11,634 nt of DNA from a virus (IMGVR_UViG_2737471861_000024), one strand, 5' to 3'. Numbered from the stretch's first letter, positions 1,260 to 10,010 are shown. The notes: generated by a model from the letters alone, not told the origin. Numbers and translations are program-made.

Positions 1260-1919
1260 CTATCCTTCCTGGAGTTTGGTAAGCGTCAGATTTCCGCAGA
1301 ACACTGCGCCGGTGTCGATGTACATCTGGTTTGCATACACCAGTGGGTGATGTGCTGGCGTATGACCGAAGATGAACAAATCGGCACCGGTTATCTCCGA
1401 GACAATACCGTCCTGCGCGTCGCTAACCCGCTCACGATTCCATATCACCATTTCTTCTGGTACTGGCTTATCGAATGCGTATTCGTTGTGCGGGTAGTCT
1501 GCGTGACAGATGACGACCTTCTTATTGCCGGTAACCAGTTCGATAATCATCGGGAGGTTGGTAATCTTTGGCAGAAGGTATTTGAGTTGCACATCCTGCT
1601 CAGAATCAAGTTGGTGCCACCATCCACCGCCGTTTGACATCCAATGTCCGAAACTTCCGCCGTTGACCAGTGCATCCAGCATCATCTGCTCATGGTTGCC
1701 ACGAACAGCTCGGAACCACGGCATAGTAATCAAATCCAGGCATTCGACGTTTTCAGCGCCGCGGTCAACAAGGTCACCAACGGAAATAAGTAAATCGCGC
1801 GCCGGGTCGAATGAAACTTTGTCGAGTTCGTTCATCAGCAGCGTGTAGCACCCATGCAGATCGCCGACGACGAAGATATTGCACCAGTCAGCGCCATTGA
1901 TACGTTGATATAGGTTCAT
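1260..1919 (-). CDS. Ser/Thr protein phosphatase, PPP-family metallophosphoesterase (lambda PPase / NinI-like); start placed at internal ATG 1919 (MNLYQ...), not at the ORF-track start 2039
   Basis: GDLHG, GDLVDRG, GNHE metallophosphatase motifs; strong collinear similarity to recalled lambda PPase sequence ([71 protein letters not shown]); ATG at 1919 forms an ATGA overlap with the stop of the upstream methyltransferase gene. Confidence 0.85.
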
Positions 1920-2566
1920 GCTGCACGCTCCCGCCCCTGGTTGTCTATTGGTGACACCGGAGCATTGCTGAATGCATTTGTTAATCCGCCAATATCCAAC
2001 GCGTATCCAGGGTGTAGTTGCACTGCCGGGTCTTCGCACTGATTACCCCAAACATCGAAGCCATGAGACTTCTGGCGGGCGAACAGTTCAATGCGAGAAA
2101 CATCGCCTAACAATTGCACAAGTTTTTCACGAACGACATCTGGTTTTCTTGAATGCTCAAGCCGCGGTGCGGTAAATGACTGAACGATCCCTGCATTAAT
2201 GCGTGGAGGTAGTTTTCCCTTTACTGCAAACAGGCAATCTTCACTATTGGCGCGAGTCATGTGTCCCATACCCATAACCAGTTTATCTGGTTGTCGACTA
2301 CCACATTTTATCCACGTGAAGCCCTTCATGGTCATCAGACGGAATCCCCAGGCTTCAACAACTTTTAGCGCTTCGAGTGGTTGTGTTGGCACCCACCACA
2401 TGGCCAACAGACAGTTTTCATCGGCCAAATCCCACACAGGAAGGCGGCAGATATCCATCACACTCATAACCGGATATTTAAAACTGGCACCGCGATTACC
2501 ATCTGCGGCTTTGTCCCGGTATACCCAGGGTGGATCTGCATAGATTAGTGTGTATTTCTTAGTCAT
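1916..2566 (-). CDS. MT-A70 family DNA N6-adenine methyltransferase (phage orphan Dam-like MTase)
   Basis: 216-aa ORF with DPPW catalytic motif near N-terminus ([10 protein letters not shown]) characteristic of MT-A70-type N6-adenine methyltransferases; GGGGTGG Shine-Dalgarno-like sequence upstream of ATG at 2566; stop overlaps phosphatase start (ATGA). Confidence 0.8.
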
Positions 2567-5268: not shown

Positions 5269-6303
5269 TCAATATTTGATATACGCGTCCTGCACTTTGC
5301 CGCCAGCGATAGCCAACATTGCTTTCTGCGCGAATTCTTCGGGAATGCCTTGGGCTATCAGATCTTCGATTACTCTGCGGTTAACGGTACGGCGATGCTC
5401 TTTATCCGCAGCTCGGCGCGCTTCTTCGTCGGCGATACGCTTCTGTTCGTCAAGGCGGGCTTTTTCTGCCGCCTCTTGGCGTCGGCGTTCCTCGGCAACG
5501 GCTTCTTCTTTTTCGCGTTGTGCACGCTGCTCTGCTTCAATTCGCTGACGTTCTGCTACTTCAGCACGTGCTTTCTCTTCCGCCGCCAGGCGTGCCGCAG
5601 CCTCAATTTCAGATTTCGCTTTTTGTTCAGCTTCGAGCCTGGCCTGTTCAGCAGCTTCCCGGCGGATATTCTCTTCTCGCTCAATGCGCGCTTTTTCCTC
5701 CGCTTCTTTGCGAAGTCGCTCCAGCTCAGCGGCTTCATGCTCGCGTTTTTGAGCTACTGCGAGTGATTCTTCCAGTTTCTGGATGGTTGAATCCTTGGCT
5801 ACTCCAGCTTCTGCTGCGTACTCATGCCAACTCTCATCAAGTGCTACTGATTTAGCCTCTTGAATTCGTTCCTGAATATCAGTTGATGGCAAGTAGTTTC
5901 CGGAGAGATCGATCACGTCAGCTAGTGCTCGCAAATTTGTCAGGCGTTGTTGCAGTGCTTCGGTGCGTAATTTCTCAGCATTTTCCCACTCGGTGAGTGG
6001 GCGGCGTACTTCATCACGAAGCCGATCGCATTCGGTTACGAAGCGTCGTAACTCTGCTTCAACTACTTTCGGCTGTTCTTTCAGGCGTTTCAGATAATCA
6101 CGTCCTGGTTTTTCTACCGCTGTTTTACTTCTTGAAACCTTCGCAGCCAGAGATGCAATGCGCTTTCTGCCTTTGTCTGTGCTAATGTCAGGCACTTCAT
6201 TAACACCTTCACGGATCTGCTCAAGAAACTTTTCCAGTCCTTTTTCAACGTAAATTCTTGGTGCCATATCTGGTGTGATTTCGATGATTGATGATTCACT
6301 CAT
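5269..6303 (-). CDS. Hypothetical protein with long E/R/K/A/Q-rich charged helical repeat region (coiled-coil or single-alpha-helix-like), 344 aa
   Basis: Long ORF; residues ~180-300 are nearly pure E/A/R/K/Q repeats (EAEQKAKSEIEAAARLAAEEKARAEVAERQRIEAEQRAQREKEE...) flanked by non-repetitive N- and C-terminal segments; start ATG overlaps stop of upstream small ORF. Confidence 0.7.
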   Translation of the reverse strand: MSESSIIEITPDMAPRIYVEKGLEKFLEQIREGVNEVPDISTDKGRKRIASLAAKVSRSKTAVEKPGRDYLKRLKEQPKVVEAELRRFVTECDRLRDEVRRPLTEWENAEKLRTEALQQRLTNLRALADVIDLSGNYLPSTDIQERIQEAKSVALDESWHEYAAEAGVAKDSTIQKLEESLAVAQKREHEAAELERLRKEAEEKARIEREENIRREAAEQARLEAEQKAKSEIEAAARLAAEEKARAEVAERQRIEAEQRAQREKEEAVAEERRRQEAAEKARLDEQKRIADEEARRAADKEHRRTVNRRVIEDLIAQGIPEEFAQKAMLAIAGGKVQDAYIKY

Positions 6304-6461
6304 TTGCTAACCTGCTCCCATATCTCGTTATCGTTGGCCACATCGCGAGCTTCTTTGCTGACGAAAGCCCACTTAATGCCTTCCTGTAAGGTGCGGAACC
6401 TCCAGCTCATGAATCCGCATGCAGTAACGCAGTACCAACCGTTGATGATTTTCCACTGCAT
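6300..6461 (-). CDS. Small hypothetical ORF (53 aa, MQWKIINGWYCVTACGFMSWRFRTLQEGIKWAFVSKEARDVANDNEIWEQVSK), first gene after the leftward early promoter; absent from the ORF track (under 60 aa)
   Basis: Hand translation of minus strand; GAGGT Shine-Dalgarno 8 nt upstream of ATG 6461; TGA stop overlaps ATG of the next gene (ATGA). Confidence 0.45.
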   Translation of the reverse strand: MQWKIINGWYCVTACGFMSWRFRTLQEGIKWAFVSKEARDVANDNEIWEQVSK

Positions 6462-6480
6462 AACTTGTTACCTCGGTCTG

Positions 6481-6495
6481 TTACCGTTGAGGTAA
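6481..6495. promoter_or_regulatory. Operator-like palindrome TTACC-GTTGA-GGTAA overlapping the -10 / transcription start of the leftward early promoter
   Basis: Perfect 5-bp inverted half-sites separated by 5 bp; same motif recurs at 6543-6557, 7255-7269, 9586-9600 and 9648-9662. Confidence 0.55.
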
Positions 6496-6523
6496 TAATT
6501 ATGCGTATCTGGTTTGGTGTCAA
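6495..6523 (-). promoter_or_regulatory. Putative leftward early promoter (PL-like): -35 TTGACA (6523-6518), 17-bp spacer, -10 AATTAT (6500-6495) on minus strand
   Basis: Perfect consensus -35 hexamer with 17-bp spacing to an A2/T6-containing -10; flanked by operator palindromes; positioned in front of the leftward operon. Confidence 0.5.
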
Positions 6524-6542
6524 TAGATATGAGTTAAAAAAA

Positions 6543-6557
6543 TTACCCGTTAGGTAA
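6543..6557. promoter_or_regulatory. Operator-like palindrome TTACC-CGTTA-GGTAA, 19 bp upstream of the PL-like -35
   Basis: Perfect TTACC-N5-GGTAA inverted repeat. Confidence 0.55.
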
Positions 6558-6568
6558 TCGAACAGGCA

Positions 6569-6594
6569 ATAAAAAAGCCGCCAGAAGGCGGCTT
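6569..6594 (-). terminator. Rho-independent terminator downstream of the repressor gene (minus strand): 8-bp stem AAGCCGCC/GGCGGCTT, 4-nt loop, followed by T-run on minus strand
   Basis: Hairpin aagccgcc-agaa-ggcggctt at 6575-6594; plus-strand A-run 6570-6576 gives a U-tract on the minus-strand transcript; lies 20 bp beyond the repressor stop. Confidence 0.6.
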
Positions 6595-6614
6595 ACTTAC
6601 TGAAAAATATGATT

Positions 6615-7199
6615 TTATTGTTTGTTTTTTTCGTTCTGGTTGATGACAAATTCAATGTAACTTTCGATCTTTGCTTTCTCGGTTTCGGGTAACAATGCGT
6701 AGCGCGAGCGATCATAGTTGATGGTCGCAGGGTCGTGCGGGTGAATCAGTAATTCATAGCCGTGACGCCCGAATGCGGATGCAACATTCTCCAGGGTGGA
6801 AATGGAAACGCTGACCTCATTGTTTAACAGGCGGCTGATTGTCACCTGGGCGACGCCGGATGCGCGGTGTAGTTTTCCCTGCGTTGAAAGGTCGCGGCTT
6901 TCGCTCATCCAGCGTTCCAGGTTGTGAGCCGCCAACTGACCAATGTCGCTTGGGCCGACAGGATGAAAACCTTCCTGAGAAAGCGAGCGATCGATATCAA
7001 GCCAGTTACGGGGTTTATTGGCGGCAGCTTCAATTTTTCGCGCAACCTGGTCGCCGATAACTTTCTTGCCAAGAGCCCAGCGGTTTACCAGATTTGCCTG
7101 AGTTCCAAGTTTTTCTGCCATCCGCGTCTGAACACCATTGAATTCACGGTCGATCAAGTCGTTGAGATTTTGCCTGCGGACGTCCTGGATACTTTTCAT
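6615..7199 (-). CDS. CI-like prophage repressor with two tandem XRE-type helix-turn-helix domains; no peptidase-S24 (LexA-like) autocleavage domain recognisable
   Basis: 194-aa ORF divergent from the Cro-like gene; HTH 1 ~aa 25-70 (TRMAEKLGTQANLVNRWALGKKVIGDQVARKIEAAANKPRNWLD), HTH 2 ~aa 115-150 (ASGVAQVTISRLLNNEVSVSISTLENVASAFG); no Ala-Gly/Ser-Lys cleavage module seen. Confidence 0.7.
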   Translation of the reverse strand: MKSIQDVRRQNLNDLIDREFNGVQTRMAEKLGTQANLVNRWALGKKVIGDQVARKIEAAANKPRNWLDIDRSLSQEGFHPVGPSDIGQLAAHNLERWMSESRDLSTQGKLHRASGVAQVTISRLLNNEVSVSISTLENVASAFGRHGYELLIHPHDPATINYDRSRYALLPETEKAKIESYIEFVINQNEKNKQ

Positions 7200-7254
7200 T
7201 TTCTGGAAAATCGCCTCATATATGAATCAGTAGATGATTCAATTTAAAGCAATA

Positions 7255-7317
7255 TTACCCAACAGGTAAATGCACCCCATAGGTAACTATCCTTGATTTT
7301 TGTTACCTTATGGGTGA
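7255..7317. promoter_or_regulatory. Divergent immunity-region operator cluster: O1 TTACC-CAACA-GGTAA (7255-7269, perfect), O2 GCACC-CCATA-GGTAA (7272-7286, degenerate), O3 TTACC-TTATG-GGTGA (7303-7317, degenerate)
   Basis: Same TTACC-N5-GGTAA family as at PL; sites lie in the 154-bp gap between the divergent repressor and Cro-like genes; an alternative reading is a larger inverted repeat CCATAGGTAAC / GTTACCTTATGG flanking TTGATT. Confidence 0.5.
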
Positions 7318-7328
7318 ATATTTATTAT
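7300..7328 (+). promoter_or_regulatory. Putative rightward early promoter (PR-like): -35 TTGTTA (7300-7305), 17-bp spacer, -10 TATTAT (7323-7328)
   Basis: Hexamers read by eye; O3 overlaps the -35/spacer; alternative -35 TTGATT at 7293-7298 with -10 GAATAT. Confidence 0.4.
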
Positions 7329-7353
7329 CTGAAATAAATATCAGGCAATAGCT

Positions 7354-7584
7354 ATGAGCGATAACGGACATTTCGATTTCAAAAAGCACTGGCTTGCACT
7401 TACTCCGGATGAGCGTGAAGCCTTCGCACAGGAAGCCGGAACGACGAGTCACTATATCCAGACTCACTTAACAGGTAAGCGCAAAATGCCAGGTAAGGTA
7501 TTGATGAATGGGCTTTTTAAAGCCTGTAAAACAAGACAATGGCTGCGCTCAAAAGCAGAACTGGCATACTTCTTCTACTCATGA
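7354..7584 (+). CDS. Cro-like small HTH DNA-binding protein (Cro/YdaS-type)
   Basis: 76-aa ORF divergent from repressor; HTH-like segment AGTTSHYIQTHLTGKRKMP; position and size as for Cro in lambdoid immunity regions. Confidence 0.65.
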   Translation: MSDNGHFDFKKHWLALTPDEREAFAQEAGTTSHYIQTHLTGKRKMPGKVLMNGLFKACKTRQWLRSKAELAYFFYS

Positions 7585-7606
7585 TATCCAGCCACAACCC
7601 TCTGTA

Positions 7607-7628
7607 GACCGCCATCCGGCGGTCTTTT
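7607..7628 (+). terminator. Rho-independent terminator after the Cro-like gene (tR1-like): stem GACCGCC/GGCGGTC, loop ATCC, then TTTT
   Basis: Perfect 7-bp GC-rich hairpin at 7607-7624 followed by T-run 7625-7628, 23 bp after the Cro-like stop. Confidence 0.6.
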
Positions 7629-7734
7629 CATATCTATTCGCACCTAAAAGGTAACAAAAAACCAAATCTGGTTGATCTTTTTTTTGTGTCAGCACAAAAT
7701 AACCGTAATCCCAATACTAATAACAGGGCTTACC

Positions 7735-7935
7735 ATGGAAATCATTACACGTATTGATGCCGCAAAGCGCGGACTTAAACGCTACTACACCGGAAAACCA
7801 TGTAAGCATGGACATGACAGTGAACGCTGGGTTTACAACGGACACTGTGTTGAGTGCACCATGGAATCAAACCGTCGCATCAGGGCAGAGATTAAGCAGA
7901 TCATGATTAATTCCTCCCCACAACATTCAAACTGA
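7735..7935 (+). CDS. Small hypothetical protein (66 aa) with Cys/His cluster (C-x-H-x-H ... C-x2-C), possible zinc-binding; occupies the cII position between cro-like and O-like genes
   Basis: Start placed at ATG 7735 (MEIITRIDAAKRGLKRYYTGKPCKHGHDSERWVYNGHCVEC...) rather than ORF-track start 7672; AGGG Shine-Dalgarno-like sequence upstream. Confidence 0.55.
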   Translation: MEIITRIDAAKRGLKRYYTGKPCKHGHDSERWVYNGHCVECTMESNRRIRAEIKQIMINSSPQHSN

Positions 7936-7950
7936 TAGCGGAGATTAATC

Positions 7951-8766
7951 ATGAGCAGACATGCAACAGATTGGGCCTGGGAGACAGATCCAGGTAGCTC
8001 GTCATTAAAGCTCATACTGCTCTCGATGGCTGACAGAGCCGATGAATATAACCTCTGCTACCCCAGCATAGAACGCCTCGTTAAAGACACTTGCCTGAAT
8101 AAAAAAACCGTACAGGCCGGGCTTATATCGCTCATGAAAATGGGGCTTATTTCAGATACCGGAGAGAGAAAGGGAGCGACGAAAAGAGTGCGGGTTTTCT
8201 CTCTTAATATAACCAAAAACGGGAACATTAAAGGCAACCGGGAGGGGGGCAATGAACCCGAAAACGGTAATGTTACCGAAAACGGGAATATACCCAAAAA
8301 CGGGATGTTGAATGATCCCAAAAACGGGATGTTGAATGATCCCAAAAACGGGATCCAGAACCAGTCATATAACCAGTCATTTAACCAAGAGAGGGAGAGC
8401 AGGACAAAAACCGGGGATTCTGTGCCTCATGACCACGGCGCAAACAACGCCGTGATGAATAACTTTGTTCCTCCTGGTGGGCCAGGGCAATTAGGCAAAT
8501 TTGTCATGCATGAACAATGGCAGCCATCAGATGACTTTCTTCGGAAAAGCTCATTGCAGGGGATCTACCTGGACAGTCTGCCAACGGCACAGGAACTTGC
8601 AGAATTCAGAATTTACTGGATGGCTGAGGGTAAGGCATACCATCAGGCACAGTGGGAGCAGAAGCTGGCAAGGCGGCTGCAGATTAGCAGACAGAAGCAA
8701 TCAACATTACCTGATAACAACGTTCCGCACTGGAACAGCCCTGAAGCATGGGAGGATTTCTTGTGA
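7951..8766 (+). CDS. Replication initiator, lambda O-like (N-terminal winged-helix DNA-binding domain, internal iteron-encoded linker)
   Basis: 271-aa ORF; N-terminal LILLSMADRADEYNLCYPSIERLVKDTCLNKKTVQAGLISLMKMGLIS resembles the phage replisome-organiser N-terminal domain; GGAG Shine-Dalgarno before ATG 7951; immediately upstream of the P-like gene; contains direct DNA repeats as in the lambda O/ori arrangement. Confidence 0.8.
   Translation: MSRHATDWAWETDPGSSSLKLILLSMADRADEYNLCYPSIERLVKDTCLNKKTVQAGLISLMKMGLISDTGERKGATKRVRVFSLNITKNGNIKGNREGGNEPENGNVTENGNIPKNGMLNDPKNGMLNDPKNGIQNQSYNQSFNQERESRTKTGDSVPHDHGANNAVMNNFVPPGGPGQLGKFVMHEQWQPSDDFLRKSSLQGIYLDSLPTAQELAEFRIYWMAEGKAYHQAQWEQKLARRLQISRQKQSTLPDNNVPHWNSPEAWEDFL
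8213..8356. repeat. Candidate replication origin iterons inside the O-like gene: about six copies of CC(A/G)AAAACGG(G/T)A spaced at 18-24 bp, including a perfect tandem 24-bp duplication (8293-8316 and 8317-8340) and a partial third copy
   Basis: Direct repeats read in sequence at about 8213, 8258, 8276, 8294, 8318, 8342; the tandem 24-mer cccaaaaacgggatgttgaatgat encodes repeated PKNGMLND peptide units. Confidence 0.7.
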
Positions 8767-9548
8767 ACAACGTTTTTACCGCGATACAAAACCGTGACGG
8801 AGAAGCCCTTTCTCGCATGTCAGGTTATGAGCATCAGTACACCAACAATGACAACGTGGTGAACATGTCAGCAGAGAGGCTTGTTGATGCCCTTTTCAAA
8901 CAGCTGAAACAACTGTTTCCGGCGGCAGTGGTAACCAACCTGAAGACGCCAGAGCAGGAAGTTGCTGCAAAACAGCAGTGGATTGCTGCGTTTGCCGAAG
9001 GGGGGATCCGAACCCGTGAACAGGTTTCTGCTGGTATGCGCCACGCCCGCGCCAGTGAATCTCCGTTCTGGCCGTCGCCAGGGCAATTCATCAAGTGGTG
9101 TAAAGACAGCAAGATGGTTCTTGGCGTCACCATTGACGATGTGATGGCGGAGTTTCACCGGTACAGCAAGGAAAAAAGTTTATATCCTGGTGGTCCCGAA
9201 AGATTCCCGTGGCGACATCCGGTTATGTACTGGGTCGTATGTGATACCCGCCGTGCAATGTATCAGCGCCAGCTTAGCGAGATTGAGGTTGAGAAACACG
9301 CGCGCAGGCTGCTCGATGATTGGGCGAAAAAGGTGGCTTCCGGACAGCAGATACCCGATCCGGTGATCAGCATACAGGCAAAGCCAGAACCAATGAGTAC
9401 GCCTCCGGACACAGGGAGAGACGTTTACCATCCACCAGGGCGAAGTTTCGGGTGCATGCCTAACGCCGCCACCCTGGGGGGAATAACACCGGCGCAGTGG
9501 CTGATGGAGGAATACAGGCGAGGAAAGGCAGCAGGATTTATCAAGTAA
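8748..9548 (+). CDS. Replication protein P-like (DnaB helicase loader); start may be ATG 8748 or GTG 8763 (GTGA overlap with O-like stop)
   Basis: 266-aa ORF; FPAAVVTNLKTPEQEVAAKQQWIAAFAEGGIRTREQVSAGMRHARASESPFWPSPGQFIKWCKD aligns with recalled lambda P (FPASLANRDQNEVNEIRRQWVLAFRENGITTMEQVNAGMRVARRQNRPFLPSPGQFVAWCRE). Confidence 0.85.
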   Translation: MGGFLVNNVFTAIQNRDGEALSRMSGYEHQYTNNDNVVNMSAERLVDALFKQLKQLFPAAVVTNLKTPEQEVAAKQQWIAAFAEGGIRTREQVSAGMRHARASESPFWPSPGQFIKWCKDSKMVLGVTIDDVMAEFHRYSKEKSLYPGGPERFPWRHPVMYWVVCDTRRAMYQRQLSEIEVEKHARRLLDDWAKKVASGQQIPDPVISIQAKPEPMSTPPDTGRDVYHPPGRSFGCMPNAATLGGITPAQWLMEEYRRGKAAGFIK

Positions 9549-9553
9549 TACCA

Positions 9554-9573
9554 GCGCGATAGCGCATTTTTTT
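9554..9573 (+). terminator. Weak candidate intrinsic terminator after the P-like gene (4-bp GCGC stem, loop GATA, T7 run)
   Basis: gcgc-gata-gcgc followed by attttttt; stem is short so termination efficiency is doubtful. Confidence 0.3.
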
Positions 9574-9585
9574 ACGCCTCAATAG

Positions 9586-9600
9586 TTACCTAATAGGTAA
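9586..9600. promoter_or_regulatory. Operator-like palindrome GTTACC-TAATA-GGTAAC, 19 bp upstream of the -35 of a third promoter
   Basis: Perfect TTACC-N5-GGTAA; spacing to the -35 is identical to the arrangement at the PL-like promoter. Confidence 0.55.
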
Positions 9601-9619
9601 CAAAATATTCTTAGATCTA

Positions 9620-9648
9620 TTGATTTCGTGTCTTATGTGGTTTTTAAT
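9620..9648 (+). promoter_or_regulatory. Putative rightward promoter for the downstream accessory genes: -35 TTGATT (9620-9625), 17-bp spacer, -10 TTTAAT (9643-9648)
   Basis: Hexamers read by eye; flanked by operator palindromes with the same spacing as at PL; shared ATCTATTGA core around the -35 in both promoters. Confidence 0.5.
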
Positions 9649-9662
9649 TACCTTAGAGGTAA
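9648..9662. promoter_or_regulatory. Operator-like palindrome TTACC-TTAGA-GGTAA overlapping the -10/start region and the ribosome-binding site of the gene at 9666
   Basis: Perfect TTACC-N5-GGTAA; its GAGGT doubles as Shine-Dalgarno for ATG 9666. Confidence 0.55.
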
Positions 9663-9665
9663 ATC

Positions 9666-10010
9666 ATGAGAAAACAGATACAGGCTCTTGGTCGACTCAA
9701 AACAGGCCAGATGAACAAAACAGAATCTGCGTATTGCCAGCACCTTGAGCAGCGTAAACGTGCAGGGGAAGTCGCCTGGTATCGGTTCGAGGGTATCAAG
9801 CTGCGGCTGGCTGACAACACGTTTTATACGCCCGATTTCGCTGTGATGCTCGCCACCGGAGAGATGGAACTGCACGAAGTGAAAGGTTTCTGGACCGACG
9901 ACGCCAGGGTGAAAACCAAAGTCGCCGCAGATCAGTATCCGTTCCGAATCATCGGGGTAACGGTTAAACCAAAGAAAGCAGGTGGTGGCTGGAATATCGA
10001 AGAGTTCTGA
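9666..10010 (+). CDS. DUF1064-like small phage protein, possible PD-(D/E)xK-type nuclease (114 aa)
   Basis: Motifs YTPDF and ELHEVKG (D ... E-x-K) in the arrangement recalled for DUF1064 proteins; strong Shine-Dalgarno GAGGTAA upstream. Confidence 0.55.
   Translation: MRKQIQALGRLKTGQMNKTESAYCQHLEQRKRAGEVAWYRFEGIKLRLADNTFYTPDFAVMLATGEMELHEVKGFWTDDARVKTKVAADQYPFRIIGVTVKPKKAGGGWNIEEF

What the first reader, a model, noticed from the sequence alone, without database searches (positions are those of the whole stretch)
6481..9662. A single 15-bp palindromic operator motif (TTACC-N5-GGTAA) marks three separate promoter regions
Five perfect copies (6481-6495, 6543-6557, 7255-7269, 9586-9600, 9648-9662) plus two degenerate copies in the immunity region (7272-7286, 7303-7317) sit only at predicted promoters, not in coding sequence. 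Half-sites 10 bp centre-to-centre fit a dimeric HTH protein binding adjacent major grooves. The motif does not match the operators I recall for lambda, 434 or P22, so this may be an immunity specificity that is not well characterised.
Basis: seen in the sequence. Interest (0 to 1): 0.65.

Follow-up and report, generated by a model that had tools for sequence, protein, structure and literature searches.

The report
Known ε15/phiV10-type phage repressor operators
The repeated TTACC-N5-GGTAA palindrome is real and is almost certainly the binding site of the prophage's main repressor, but the same motif is already annotated in the sister phage ε15 and its repressor family has solved structures, so this is an ordinary, essentially known switch.

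Summary
Five perfect TTACC-N5-GGTAA sites lie at the stated coordinates, against 0 expected, and all are intergenic.

The window is about 98% identical to E. coli phage phiV10, an ε15-like podovirus of the genus Uetakevirus. The ε15 GenBank record already annotates the same palindrome, as ATTACC-N5-GGTAAT, as 'repressor' binding sites at equivalent positions.

The 194-aa repressor is a full-length homologue of Salmonella phage SPC32H Rep (PDB 5D50, E 4e-42). That protein is a tetramer that is not cleaved on induction. It has an N-terminal helix-turn-helix (HTH) DNA-binding domain and is inactivated by a LexA-controlled antirepressor.

Motif, positions and spacings are conserved in six phages of four host genera:
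- a pair 62 bp apart bracketing the leftward promoter;
- a second pair 62 bp apart bracketing the promoter after the replication genes;
- a triple site spaced 17 and 30/31 bp between the repressor and cro-like genes.

This holds although the repressors are only 42% identical. Their putative recognition helix, NLVNRW, is invariant.

So the operator reading is right. The suggestion of a poorly characterised immunity specificity is not: the specificity is genus-wide and known. Interest is low. The one residual point is the conserved 62-bp bracketing geometry, whose mechanism is not described in any paper I could read.

The parts
6481..6495 (.). Promoter-proximal operator of the leftward early promoter (TTACCGTTGAGGTAA). 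Its last base is also the last base of the -10 hexamer, and it covers the predicted transcription start.
   Evidence: Perfect match. It aligns with invariant half-sites in six phages (A3). The homologous ε15 site is annotated 'repressor'.
6495..6523 (-). Predicted leftward early promoter ('PL', my name): -35 TTGACA at 6523-6518, 17-bp spacer, -10 AATTAT at 6500-6495. It drives genes 6461 to 5269 and beyond (recombination module).
   Evidence: Consensus scan scores 10 of 12. The -35 block TATTGA is invariant in 12 aligned promoter cassettes. Prediction only.
6543..6557 (.). Distal operator of the leftward promoter (TTACCCGTTAGGTAA), 19 bp upstream of the -35 and 62 bp centre-to-centre from the proximal operator.
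   Evidence: The spacing is 62 bp in five of six phages and 63 bp in the Klebsiella phage.
6575..6594 (-). Intrinsic terminator after the repressor gene.
   Evidence: Annotated as a putative terminator in phiV10.
6615..7199 (-). Repressor (Rep), 194 aa: N-terminal HTH DNA-binding domain, a middle HTH-like domain, a C-terminal tetramerisation domain, and no S24 self-cleavage domain.
   Evidence: Matches PDB 5D50_A at E 3.9e-42 over residues 1-190. Pfam gives HTH_3 at 106-147 and a weak YdaS-type HTH at 21-61. The segment NLVNRW (residues 36-41) is invariant. The repressor of phage ZX5 is 99.5% identical to this one, and its overexpression abolished free phage and cut lysis-gene transcription by over 99.9% (PMC9782041).
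7255..7269 (.). Perfect operator nearest the repressor gene (TTACCCAACAGGTAA). It overlaps the candidate -35 and spacer of the repressor's own promoter.
7272..7286 (.). Middle operator, degenerate (GCACCCCATAGGTAA), 17 bp centre-to-centre from 7255-7269.
   Evidence: The GGTGC deviation is conserved in Tyrion and BUCT554; the site is perfect in ε15, SPC32H and the Klebsiella phage.
7303..7317 (.). Operator inside the rightward promoter of the cro-like gene (TTACCTTATGGGTGA, which reads TCACC...GGTAA on the other strand), 31 bp from the middle site.
   Evidence: The same TCACC deviation occurs at this position in five of the six phages; the Klebsiella phage's site is more degenerate.
7293..7322 (+). 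Predicted rightward promoter of the cro-like gene: -35 TTGATT at 7293-7298, 18-bp spacer, -10 AATATT at 7317-7322. Alternative: TTGTTA at 7300-7305 with TATTAT at 7323-7328.
   Evidence: TTGATTTTT is invariant in all six phages (A4). Prediction only.
7354..7584 (+). Cro-like 76-aa HTH protein, a possible second binder of the same sites.
   Evidence: Matches phrog_35 'transcriptional repressor' at E 5.6e-13. It is 58-84% identical across the genus, with AGTTSHYIQ-x-HLT invariant.
7606..7625 (+). Intrinsic terminator after the cro-like gene.
7640..7654 (.). Additional degenerate operator (GCACCTAAAAGGTAA), 17 bp upstream of a weak promoter-like site (TTGATC at 7672-7677) that precedes the replication genes.
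   Evidence: One-mismatch sites sit at the same position in phiV10 (33112), Tyrion and the Klebsiella phage (4046 in each locus).
9586..9600 (.). Distal operator of the promoter after the replication genes ('P3', my name): TTACCTAATAGGTAA.
   Evidence: The ε15 homologue is annotated 'repressor'.
9620..9648 (+). Predicted P3 promoter: -35 TTGATT at 9620-9625, 17-bp spacer, -10 TTTAAT at 9643-9648. Same geometry as the leftward promoter.
   Evidence: Read from the sequence and from the alignment of 12 cassettes. The consensus scans did not call it because the -10 lacks A at position 2.
9648..9662 (.). Proximal operator of P3 (TTACCTTAGAGGTAA), 62 bp from the distal one. Its GAGG also serves as the ribosome-binding site of the gene starting at 9666.
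   Evidence: The spacing is 62 bp in all six phages.

Best explanation
The TTACC-N5-GGTAA sites are the operators of the prophage's lysogeny repressor Rep (6615-7199, minus strand), a member of the ε15/SPC32H Rep family.

Proposed binding (inferred): pairs of Rep's N-terminal HTH domains read the two TTACC half-sites in adjacent major grooves.

Site placement (shown from sequence):
- Leftward early promoter and the promoter after the replication genes: one operator overlaps the -10 and the start site, and a second lies 62 bp upstream. The two bracket the place where RNA polymerase binds.
- Between the rep and cro-like genes: three sites spaced 17 and 31 bp. One lies inside the rightward promoter and one lies on the repressor's own promoter. 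This layout could give repression of the lytic genes and autoregulation.

Induction (by homology): Rep has no self-cleavage domain. Induction is expected to work through a small LexA-controlled antirepressor that takes the Rep tetramer off the DNA. That gene lies outside this window but is present in phiV10.

Shown here: the sites, their placement, their conservation, and the protein homologies.
Inferred: which protein binds, the promoter assignments, and whether a single tetramer bridges each 62-bp pair.
For: 1. The motif is far above chance and strictly intergenic. The host background is at chance.
2. The ε15 record annotates the same palindrome as repressor-binding sites in the homologous leftward and post-replication regions and upstream of the terS, gp3 and tailspike genes.
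3. Rep is a full-length homologue of SPC32H Rep, PDB 5D50. SPC32H itself carries the motif at the same positions.
4. Half-sites, site positions and spacings are conserved in six phages while the 5-bp spacers and flanks vary.
5. The putative recognition helix NLVNRW is invariant although overall Rep identity falls to 42%.
6. A 99.5%-identical repressor shuts down lytic transcription when overexpressed (PMC9782041; identity).
7. SPC32H Rep is described as binding palindromic DNA as a tetramer and being disassembled by Ant (PMC9638917; PMC9986798).
8. phiV10 encodes an Ant about 88% identical to SPC32H Ant, preceded by a perfect LexA box.
Against: There are no binding data for this phage. I could not read the primary SPC32H and ε15 papers, so I could not confirm that this exact sequence was footprinted, and the ε15 features may themselves be predictions. 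The cro-like protein also has an invariant HTH and could be the main binder at some sites. Promoter assignments rest on consensus matches only, and the P3 -10 is non-canonical. A span of 62 bp is about 210 Å of straight DNA, whereas the middle-domain pairs of the tetramer are reported about 100 Å apart. Bridging by one tetramer would therefore need DNA bending or extended linkers.
Confidence: 0.85

Rival explanations
1. The sites are bound mainly by the 76-aa cro-like protein, acting as a lytic-phase repressor or regulator, and not by Rep.
For: The cro-like protein matches a phage 'transcriptional repressor' family. Its putative HTH segment AGTTSHYIQ-x-HLT is invariant across the genus, which fits an invariant operator equally well.
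Against: In lambda-type switches Cro and the repressor share operators, so this is more likely an addition than an alternative. The ε15 annotation assigns the sites to the repressor. Sites in front of the late, tail, lysis and integrase genes make sense for a lysogeny repressor that silences the whole prophage. Rep's own putative recognition helix is invariant too.
Confidence: 0.07
2. The repeats are simply inherited copies of a duplicated promoter cassette, with no protein-binding role of their own.
For: The leftward and post-replication promoter regions align with each other over their whole length, about 71% mean column identity across 12 cassettes.
Against: Within those cassettes the half-sites are invariant while the spacers and neighbouring bases vary. 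The motif also occurs outside the cassette: in the rep/cro-like region, after the cro-like gene's terminator, and at about seven other intergenic places in phiV10 and ε15.
Confidence: 0.03
3. The palindromes act as RNA or DNA hairpins (for example processing or attenuation signals) and not as protein-binding sites.
For: A conserved stem with a variable loop is also the pattern expected of a hairpin. Each 15-mer can form a 4-5 bp stem.
Against: The predicted stability is marginal, -2.6 to -3.9 kcal/mol. The stem sequence never covaries; it is always TTACC/GGTAA. The distal sites lie upstream of the -35, so they would not be transcribed from the promoter they flank.
Confidence: 0.02
4. A host regulator, and not a phage protein, recognises the motif.
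For: None specific. I recalled that the E. coli MqsA palindrome (ACCT-N3-AGGT) resembles two of the sites; this comes from memory and was not tested.
Against: Host DNA shows no enrichment. The motif travels with the phage across four host genera. Only two of the five perfect sites fit the MqsA pattern.
Confidence: 0.02

Closest known systems
Salmonella phage SPC32H Rep-Ant lysis-lysogeny switch (Kim & Ryu 2013; Kim et al. 2016; PDB 5D4Z and 5D50)
   Same: The repressor is homologous over its full length (E 3.9e-42) and shares the NLVNRW segment. SPC32H has TTACC-N5-GGTAA sites at the same positions with the same 62-bp and 17/30-bp spacings. There is no S24 cleavage domain. phiV10 has an Ant homologue about 88% identical, with a LexA box.
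   Different: Rep is only 42% identical overall. The operator spacers are more GC-rich here, 39% in the phiV10 clade against 11% in the ε15 clade. The middle site of the triple is degenerate here but perfect in SPC32H. SPC32H and ε15 have a third site in the leftward region that this phage lacks.
Salmonella phage ε15 annotated repressor-binding sites (GenBank AY150271.2)
   Same: Seven 17-bp features, ATTACC-N5-GGTAAT, are labelled 'repressor / lysogeny'. They contain exactly this 15-bp palindrome and lie in the homologous regions.
   Different: The ε15 record does not annotate the three sites between rep and gp39, although they are present. The outer A/T pair that makes a 17-mer is not general: a perfect 17-mer occurs once in phiV10 and never in the Klebsiella phage.
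Lambda, 434 and P22 CI/Cro operators
   Same: Divergent repressor and cro-like genes are separated by three palindromic operators of graded quality that overlap both promoters. A separate operator set controls a leftward early promoter.
   Different: The sequence is different. The repressor lacks the RecA-stimulated self-cleavage domain and is reported to be a tetramer with three domains. The leftward and P3 operators bracket the promoter at 62 bp and are not arranged in tandem. Operators also occur in front of late, lysis, tail and integrase genes.
Genome-wide repressor sites of phage P1 (C1 operators) and mycobacteriophage L5 (gp71 'stoperators') (recalled, not tested here)
   Same: One repressor motif is scattered over most transcription units of the prophage: 14 sites in phiV10 and 15 in ε15.
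   Different: Those sites are asymmetric and the proteins are unrelated. Here the sites are palindromic and lie at promoters, not within transcribed regions.

Membership tests
ε15/SPC32H-type Rep operator system (Uetakevirus) | The repressor is homologous to SPC32H Rep over its whole length (N-terminal DNA-binding domain, middle domain, C-terminal tetramerisation domain). | tested here: met
   phmmer against PDB sequences: 5D50_A at E 3.9e-42 over residues 1-190; 5D4Z_A (C-terminal part) at E 4.1e-20.
ε15/SPC32H-type Rep operator system (Uetakevirus) | The DNA-reading helix of the N-terminal domain is conserved. | tested here: met
   N36-L-V-N-R-W41, G44, K46, A53 and R54 are invariant in six Reps that are 42-78% identical to this one. 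That this segment is the recognition helix is my inference from the HTH pattern.
ε15/SPC32H-type Rep operator system (Uetakevirus) | The palindromic operator TTACC-N5-GGTAA lies at the homologous promoters. | tested here: met
   ε15 protein_bind features.
ε15/SPC32H-type Rep operator system (Uetakevirus) | The repressor is not self-cleaving (no LexA/S24 peptidase domain). | tested here: met
   Pfam finds only HTH families and no Peptidase_S24.
ε15/SPC32H-type Rep operator system (Uetakevirus) | A small antirepressor (Ant) under LexA control. | tested here: inconclusive
   The window contains no Ant gene and no LexA box. In phiV10, which matches window 6315-9800 at 98.3% identity, p24 matches 5D50_E at E 2.9e-46 and is preceded by CTGTATAAATACACAG. 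Whether the prophage this window comes from carries it was not checked.
ε15/SPC32H-type Rep operator system (Uetakevirus) | Rep physically binds the sites as a tetramer. | not testable with these tools
   Needs gel-shift, footprinting and SEC-MALS experiments. Known here only second-hand for SPC32H (PMC9638917).
Lambdoid CI/Cro switch | The repressor has a C-terminal S24 self-cleavage and dimerisation domain. | tested here: not met
   One search finds no S24 domain. The C-terminal half matches the SPC32H Rep middle and tetramerisation domains.
Lambdoid CI/Cro switch | A tripartite operator lies between divergent repressor and cro genes. | tested here: met
   Sites at 7255, 7272 and 7303 lie between rep (minus strand) and the cro-like gene (plus strand). 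This is a resemblance of layout only.

The most novel reading that the evidence does not exclude
Two operators sit exactly 62 bp apart around the -35 and -10 elements, at two different promoters in six diverged phages. This arrangement may be a dedicated 'promoter clamp' in which a single Rep tetramer holds both sites through its two pairs of DNA-binding domains. On the same reading, immunity differences between the phiV10-type and ε15-type phages would lie in spacer composition (39% against 11% GC, read indirectly) and not in the half-sites. I found neither point described in the papers I could read, and one of them says the repression mechanism of this repressor 'has not been extensively characterized' (PMC9986798).
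Probability: 0.3. Interest if true: 0.4.

Novelty: already known. Interest (0 to 1): 0.15.

Why it matters
It matters little as a discovery. The motif, its binder family and the induction mechanism are established for the sister phages ε15 and SPC32H.

It is useful for annotation. The phiV10, ZX5 and Tyrion records fetched here carry no operator features, and this immunity/replication region is found in 561 of 5,426 complete E. coli genomes. The same simple pattern would locate the repressor-controlled promoters in all of them.

The fixed 62-bp and 17/18-bp spacings also give testable constraints for working out how the tetrameric repressor engages DNA.

Tried and rejected
1. Primary papers: I tried to read the ε15 genome paper (PMC2698709), Kim & Ryu 2013 (PMC3807360) and Kim et al. 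2016 (PMC4983836). None is held. A full-text search for the motif string found nothing. So I could not confirm that this exact sequence was shown experimentally to be the Rep site.
2. Asymmetry: all five perfect sites in the window have A at position 10 (AGGTAA), which suggested an asymmetric site. I rejected this because the pattern does not hold in ε15, SPC32H or the Klebsiella phage.
3. A 17-bp site: I tested whether the true site is ATTACC-N5-GGTAAT, as annotated in ε15. It is not general: a perfect 17-mer occurs once in phiV10 and never in the Klebsiella phage.
4. Antirepressor specificity: I considered that the strong divergence of the Rep C-terminal half tracks antirepressor specificity. 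I rejected this because phiV10 Ant is about 88% identical to SPC32H Ant.
5. MqsA resemblance: only two of the five sites fit the ACCT-N3-AGGT pattern, so I did not pursue it.
6. RNA hairpin reading: the predicted energies are marginal.
7. LexA box: there is none in the window.
8. Not run: no structure prediction or large protein database search was run, because the PDB sequence match already placed the protein.


Full report
**1. Observation**

An exact search finds TTACC-N5-GGTAA five times in the 11,634-bp window, at 6481, 6543, 7255, 9586 and 9648. None of 200 dinucleotide-preserving shuffles gave any match.

Allowing two mismatches gives 13 hits against 3.06 expected.
- The other five are scattered in coding sequence, about the number chance predicts.
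- All eight regulatory sites lie in the 12.8% of the window that is non-coding.
- A 50-kb sample of host chromosome shows no perfect site and two one-mismatch sites against 0.97 expected.

**2. What the element is**

Window 6300-9800 matches E. coli phage phiV10 at 98.3% identity, and close relatives (PAS61, phiv142-3, ZX5, TL-2011b) at 96.7-98.4%. These are ε15-like podoviruses of the genus Uetakevirus. The same region occurs in 561 of 5,426 complete E. coli genomes.

Genes around the sites:

| Coordinates | Strand | Product |
|---|---|---|
| 6615-7199 | - | 194-aa repressor with HTH motifs |
| 7354-7584 | + | 76-aa cro-like protein |
| 7735-7935 | + | small protein of unknown function |
| 7951-8766 | + | DnaT-like replication protein |
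| 8748-9548 | + | lambda-P-like replication protein |
| 9666-10010 | + | DUF1064 protein (resolvase-like by PHROGs) |

**3. The motif is already annotated in the sister phage**

The ε15 GenBank record (AY150271.2) carries seven 'protein_bind: repressor, lysogeny' features. Their sequences are ATTACCAAAATGGTAAT, ATTACCCAAAAGGTAAT, ATTACCCTTTTGGTAAT and similar. That is the same palindrome.

They lie between the repressor gene and the first leftward gene, after the replication genes, and upstream of the terS, gp3 and tailspike genes. The same record notes that the ε15 repressor matches PDB 5D50, the SPC32H repressor.

**4. The binder**

The window's repressor matches SPC32H Rep (5D50_A) at E 3.9e-42 over residues 1-190.

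According to papers I could read:
- SPC32H Rep has an N-terminal DNA-binding domain, a middle dimerisation domain and a C-terminal tetramerisation domain.
- It binds palindromic DNA as a tetramer, with pairs of DNA-binding domains drawn from different dimers.
- It is removed from DNA by a tetrameric antirepressor, Ant (PMC9638917; PMC9986798).

Pfam finds no self-cleavage domain in the window's repressor.

In phage ZX5 the repressor is 99.5% identical to this one. Overexpressing it abolished free phage and cut holin and endolysin transcription by over 99.9% (PMC9782041).

phiV10 gene p24 is about 88% identical to SPC32H Ant (5D50_E, E 2.9e-46). A perfect LexA box, CTGTATAAATACACAG, sits just upstream of it. 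The whole Rep/Ant/LexA circuit is therefore conserved in this phage type, although the Ant gene lies outside the window and the window has no LexA box.

**5. Comparative test**

I scanned the homologous regions of ε15, SPC32H, Enterobacter phages Tyrion and BUCT554, and Klebsiella phage BUCT711. Their Reps are 42-78% identical to this one. Every one has the motif far above chance, 7-10 sites per 9.5 kb against 0.07-0.16 expected, and the layout is the same.

| Region | Spacing, centre to centre | Conservation |
|---|---|---|
| Pair around the leftward promoter | 62 bp | five of six phages; 63 bp in the Klebsiella phage |
| Pair after the replication genes | 62 bp | all six phages |
| Triple between rep and the cro-like gene | 17 bp and 30/31 bp | all six phages |

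In five of the six phages the site inside the rightward promoter carries the same deviation, TCACC; the Klebsiella phage's site there is more degenerate.

Aligning the twelve 97-bp cassettes (two promoters in six phages) shows what is fixed and what varies.
- Invariant: the half-sites, a TATTGA -35 block, and the junction between the -10 and the operator.
- Variable: the spacers and the other positions.
- Shared geometry: operator, 19 bp, -35, 17 bp, then a -10 whose last T is the first T of the second operator.

The Rep segment NLVNRW is invariant in all six proteins. The cro-like protein's AGTTSHYIQ-x-HLT is invariant too. This is what one expects when an invariant DNA site is read by conserved helices.

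**6. Genome-wide picture**

phiV10 has 14 sites with at most one mismatch, against 0.64 expected. ε15 has 15 against 0.58.

In phiV10, 12 of the 14 lie in the 6.5% of the genome annotated as non-coding (P = 4.5e-13). The other two, at 87 and 105, lie in a 5' extension of the terS gene. That extension runs through a terminator hairpin and is probably mis-annotated.

The sites precede the terS, head, tail-fibre/Ant, lysis/O-acetyltransferase, integrase, early-left, cro-like, replication and post-replication genes. Rep therefore appears to silence nearly every transcription unit directly.

**7. Mechanism**

Shown: the site positions relative to consensus promoters.

Inferred:
- Rep bound at the proximal sites would occlude the -10 and the start of the leftward and P3 promoters.
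- The site at 7303-7317 lies in the spacer of the rightward promoter (TTGATT, 18 bp, AATATT).
- The perfect site at 7255-7269 overlaps the candidate -35 of the repressor's own promoter, which suggests autoregulation.

Whether one tetramer bridges a 62-bp pair is open. Sixty-two bp is about 5.9 helical turns, so both sites face the same side of the DNA. It is also about 210 Å of straight DNA, whereas the middle-domain pairs are reported about 100 Å apart. Bending or long linkers would be needed. The 17/18-bp tandem pairs in the rep/cro-like region and upstream of terS are an alternative unit for one tetramer.

**8. Rival explanations**

- **Binding by the cro-like protein only.** This is possible at some sites but is more likely additional than alternative.
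- **Inherited cassette copies with no binding role.** This is contradicted by invariant half-sites within variable surroundings, and by sites outside the cassette.
- **RNA hairpins.** The predicted stability is weak, -2.6 to -3.9 kcal/mol. The stem never covaries, and the distal sites lie upstream of the promoters they flank.
- **A host regulator.** There is no enrichment in host DNA.

**9. Verdict**

The suggestion of an uncharacterised immunity specificity is not: the specificity is genus-wide, annotated in ε15, and belongs to a structurally characterised repressor family.

Two residual points have modest interest:
- The strictly conserved 62-bp bracketing geometry.
- The difference in spacer composition between the two Rep clades, 39% against 11% GC (Mann-Whitney p = 6.5e-5; the sites are not phylogenetically independent). 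This might carry any immunity difference.

The main caveat is that I could not read the primary SPC32H and ε15 papers. The statement that Rep binds exactly this sequence rests on annotation, homology and conservation, not on binding data I have seen.

Noticed in passing
window 8256-8387: Tandem repeats lie inside the DnaT-like replication gene: 2.8 copies of an 18-bp unit (ACCCGAAAACGGGAATAT), 2.6 perfect copies of a 24-bp unit (CCCAAAAACGGGATGTTGAATGAT), and 2.4 copies of a 12-bp unit. They look like origin iterons embedded in the initiator gene, as in lambda O. phiV10 differs in length here: its gene is 828 bp against 816 bp in the window.
   Followed up: partly
window 9648-9665: The proximal P3 operator doubles as the ribosome-binding site of the DUF1064 gene (TTACCTTAGAGGTAAatcATG). 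This overlap is conserved in five of the six phages and is displaced by two bases in the Klebsiella phage. It implies a very short leader if the predicted -10 is correct.
   Followed up: partly
L002 (phiV10) 20543-20839: phiV10 p24, annotated 'hypothetical protein', is about 88% identical to the SPC32H antirepressor Ant (5D50_E). It has a perfect LexA box, CTGTATAAATACACAG, just upstream. The protein annotated 'putative anti-immunity protein' in that record is a different one, the Bro-domain protein p23.
   Followed up: yes
L002 (phiV10) 41-122: The annotated start of the terminase small subunit gene at 41 runs through a terminator-like hairpin (ccgccaactatggcgg followed by T's) and two repressor sites at 87 and 105. 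The real start is probably the ATG near 120, matching ε15, where the sites lie at 12 and 30 and the ATG at 47.
   Followed up: partly
window 1260-2039 (minus strand): A 259-aa ORF matches NinI-like serine/threonine phosphatases (phrog_246, E 1.5e-108). No product of this kind is annotated in phiV10. The region left of about 6315 also departs from phiV10: the window has a 344-aa Glu/Ala-rich protein at 5269-6303 and separate RecT and exonuclease genes instead of phiV10's recET fusion. This is ordinary mosaicism.
   Followed up: no
window 7272-7286 and 7640-7654: Both 2-mismatch regulatory sites share the same variant left half, GCACC. In the middle site of the triple this deviation is conserved in Tyrion and BUCT554. 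It suggests deliberately weakened operators and not decay.
   Followed up: partly
E. coli genomes: A few genomes contain two places matching this immunity/replication region (the highest count is 2 per genome). This could bear on whether two such prophages can coexist despite sharing operators.
   Followed up: no
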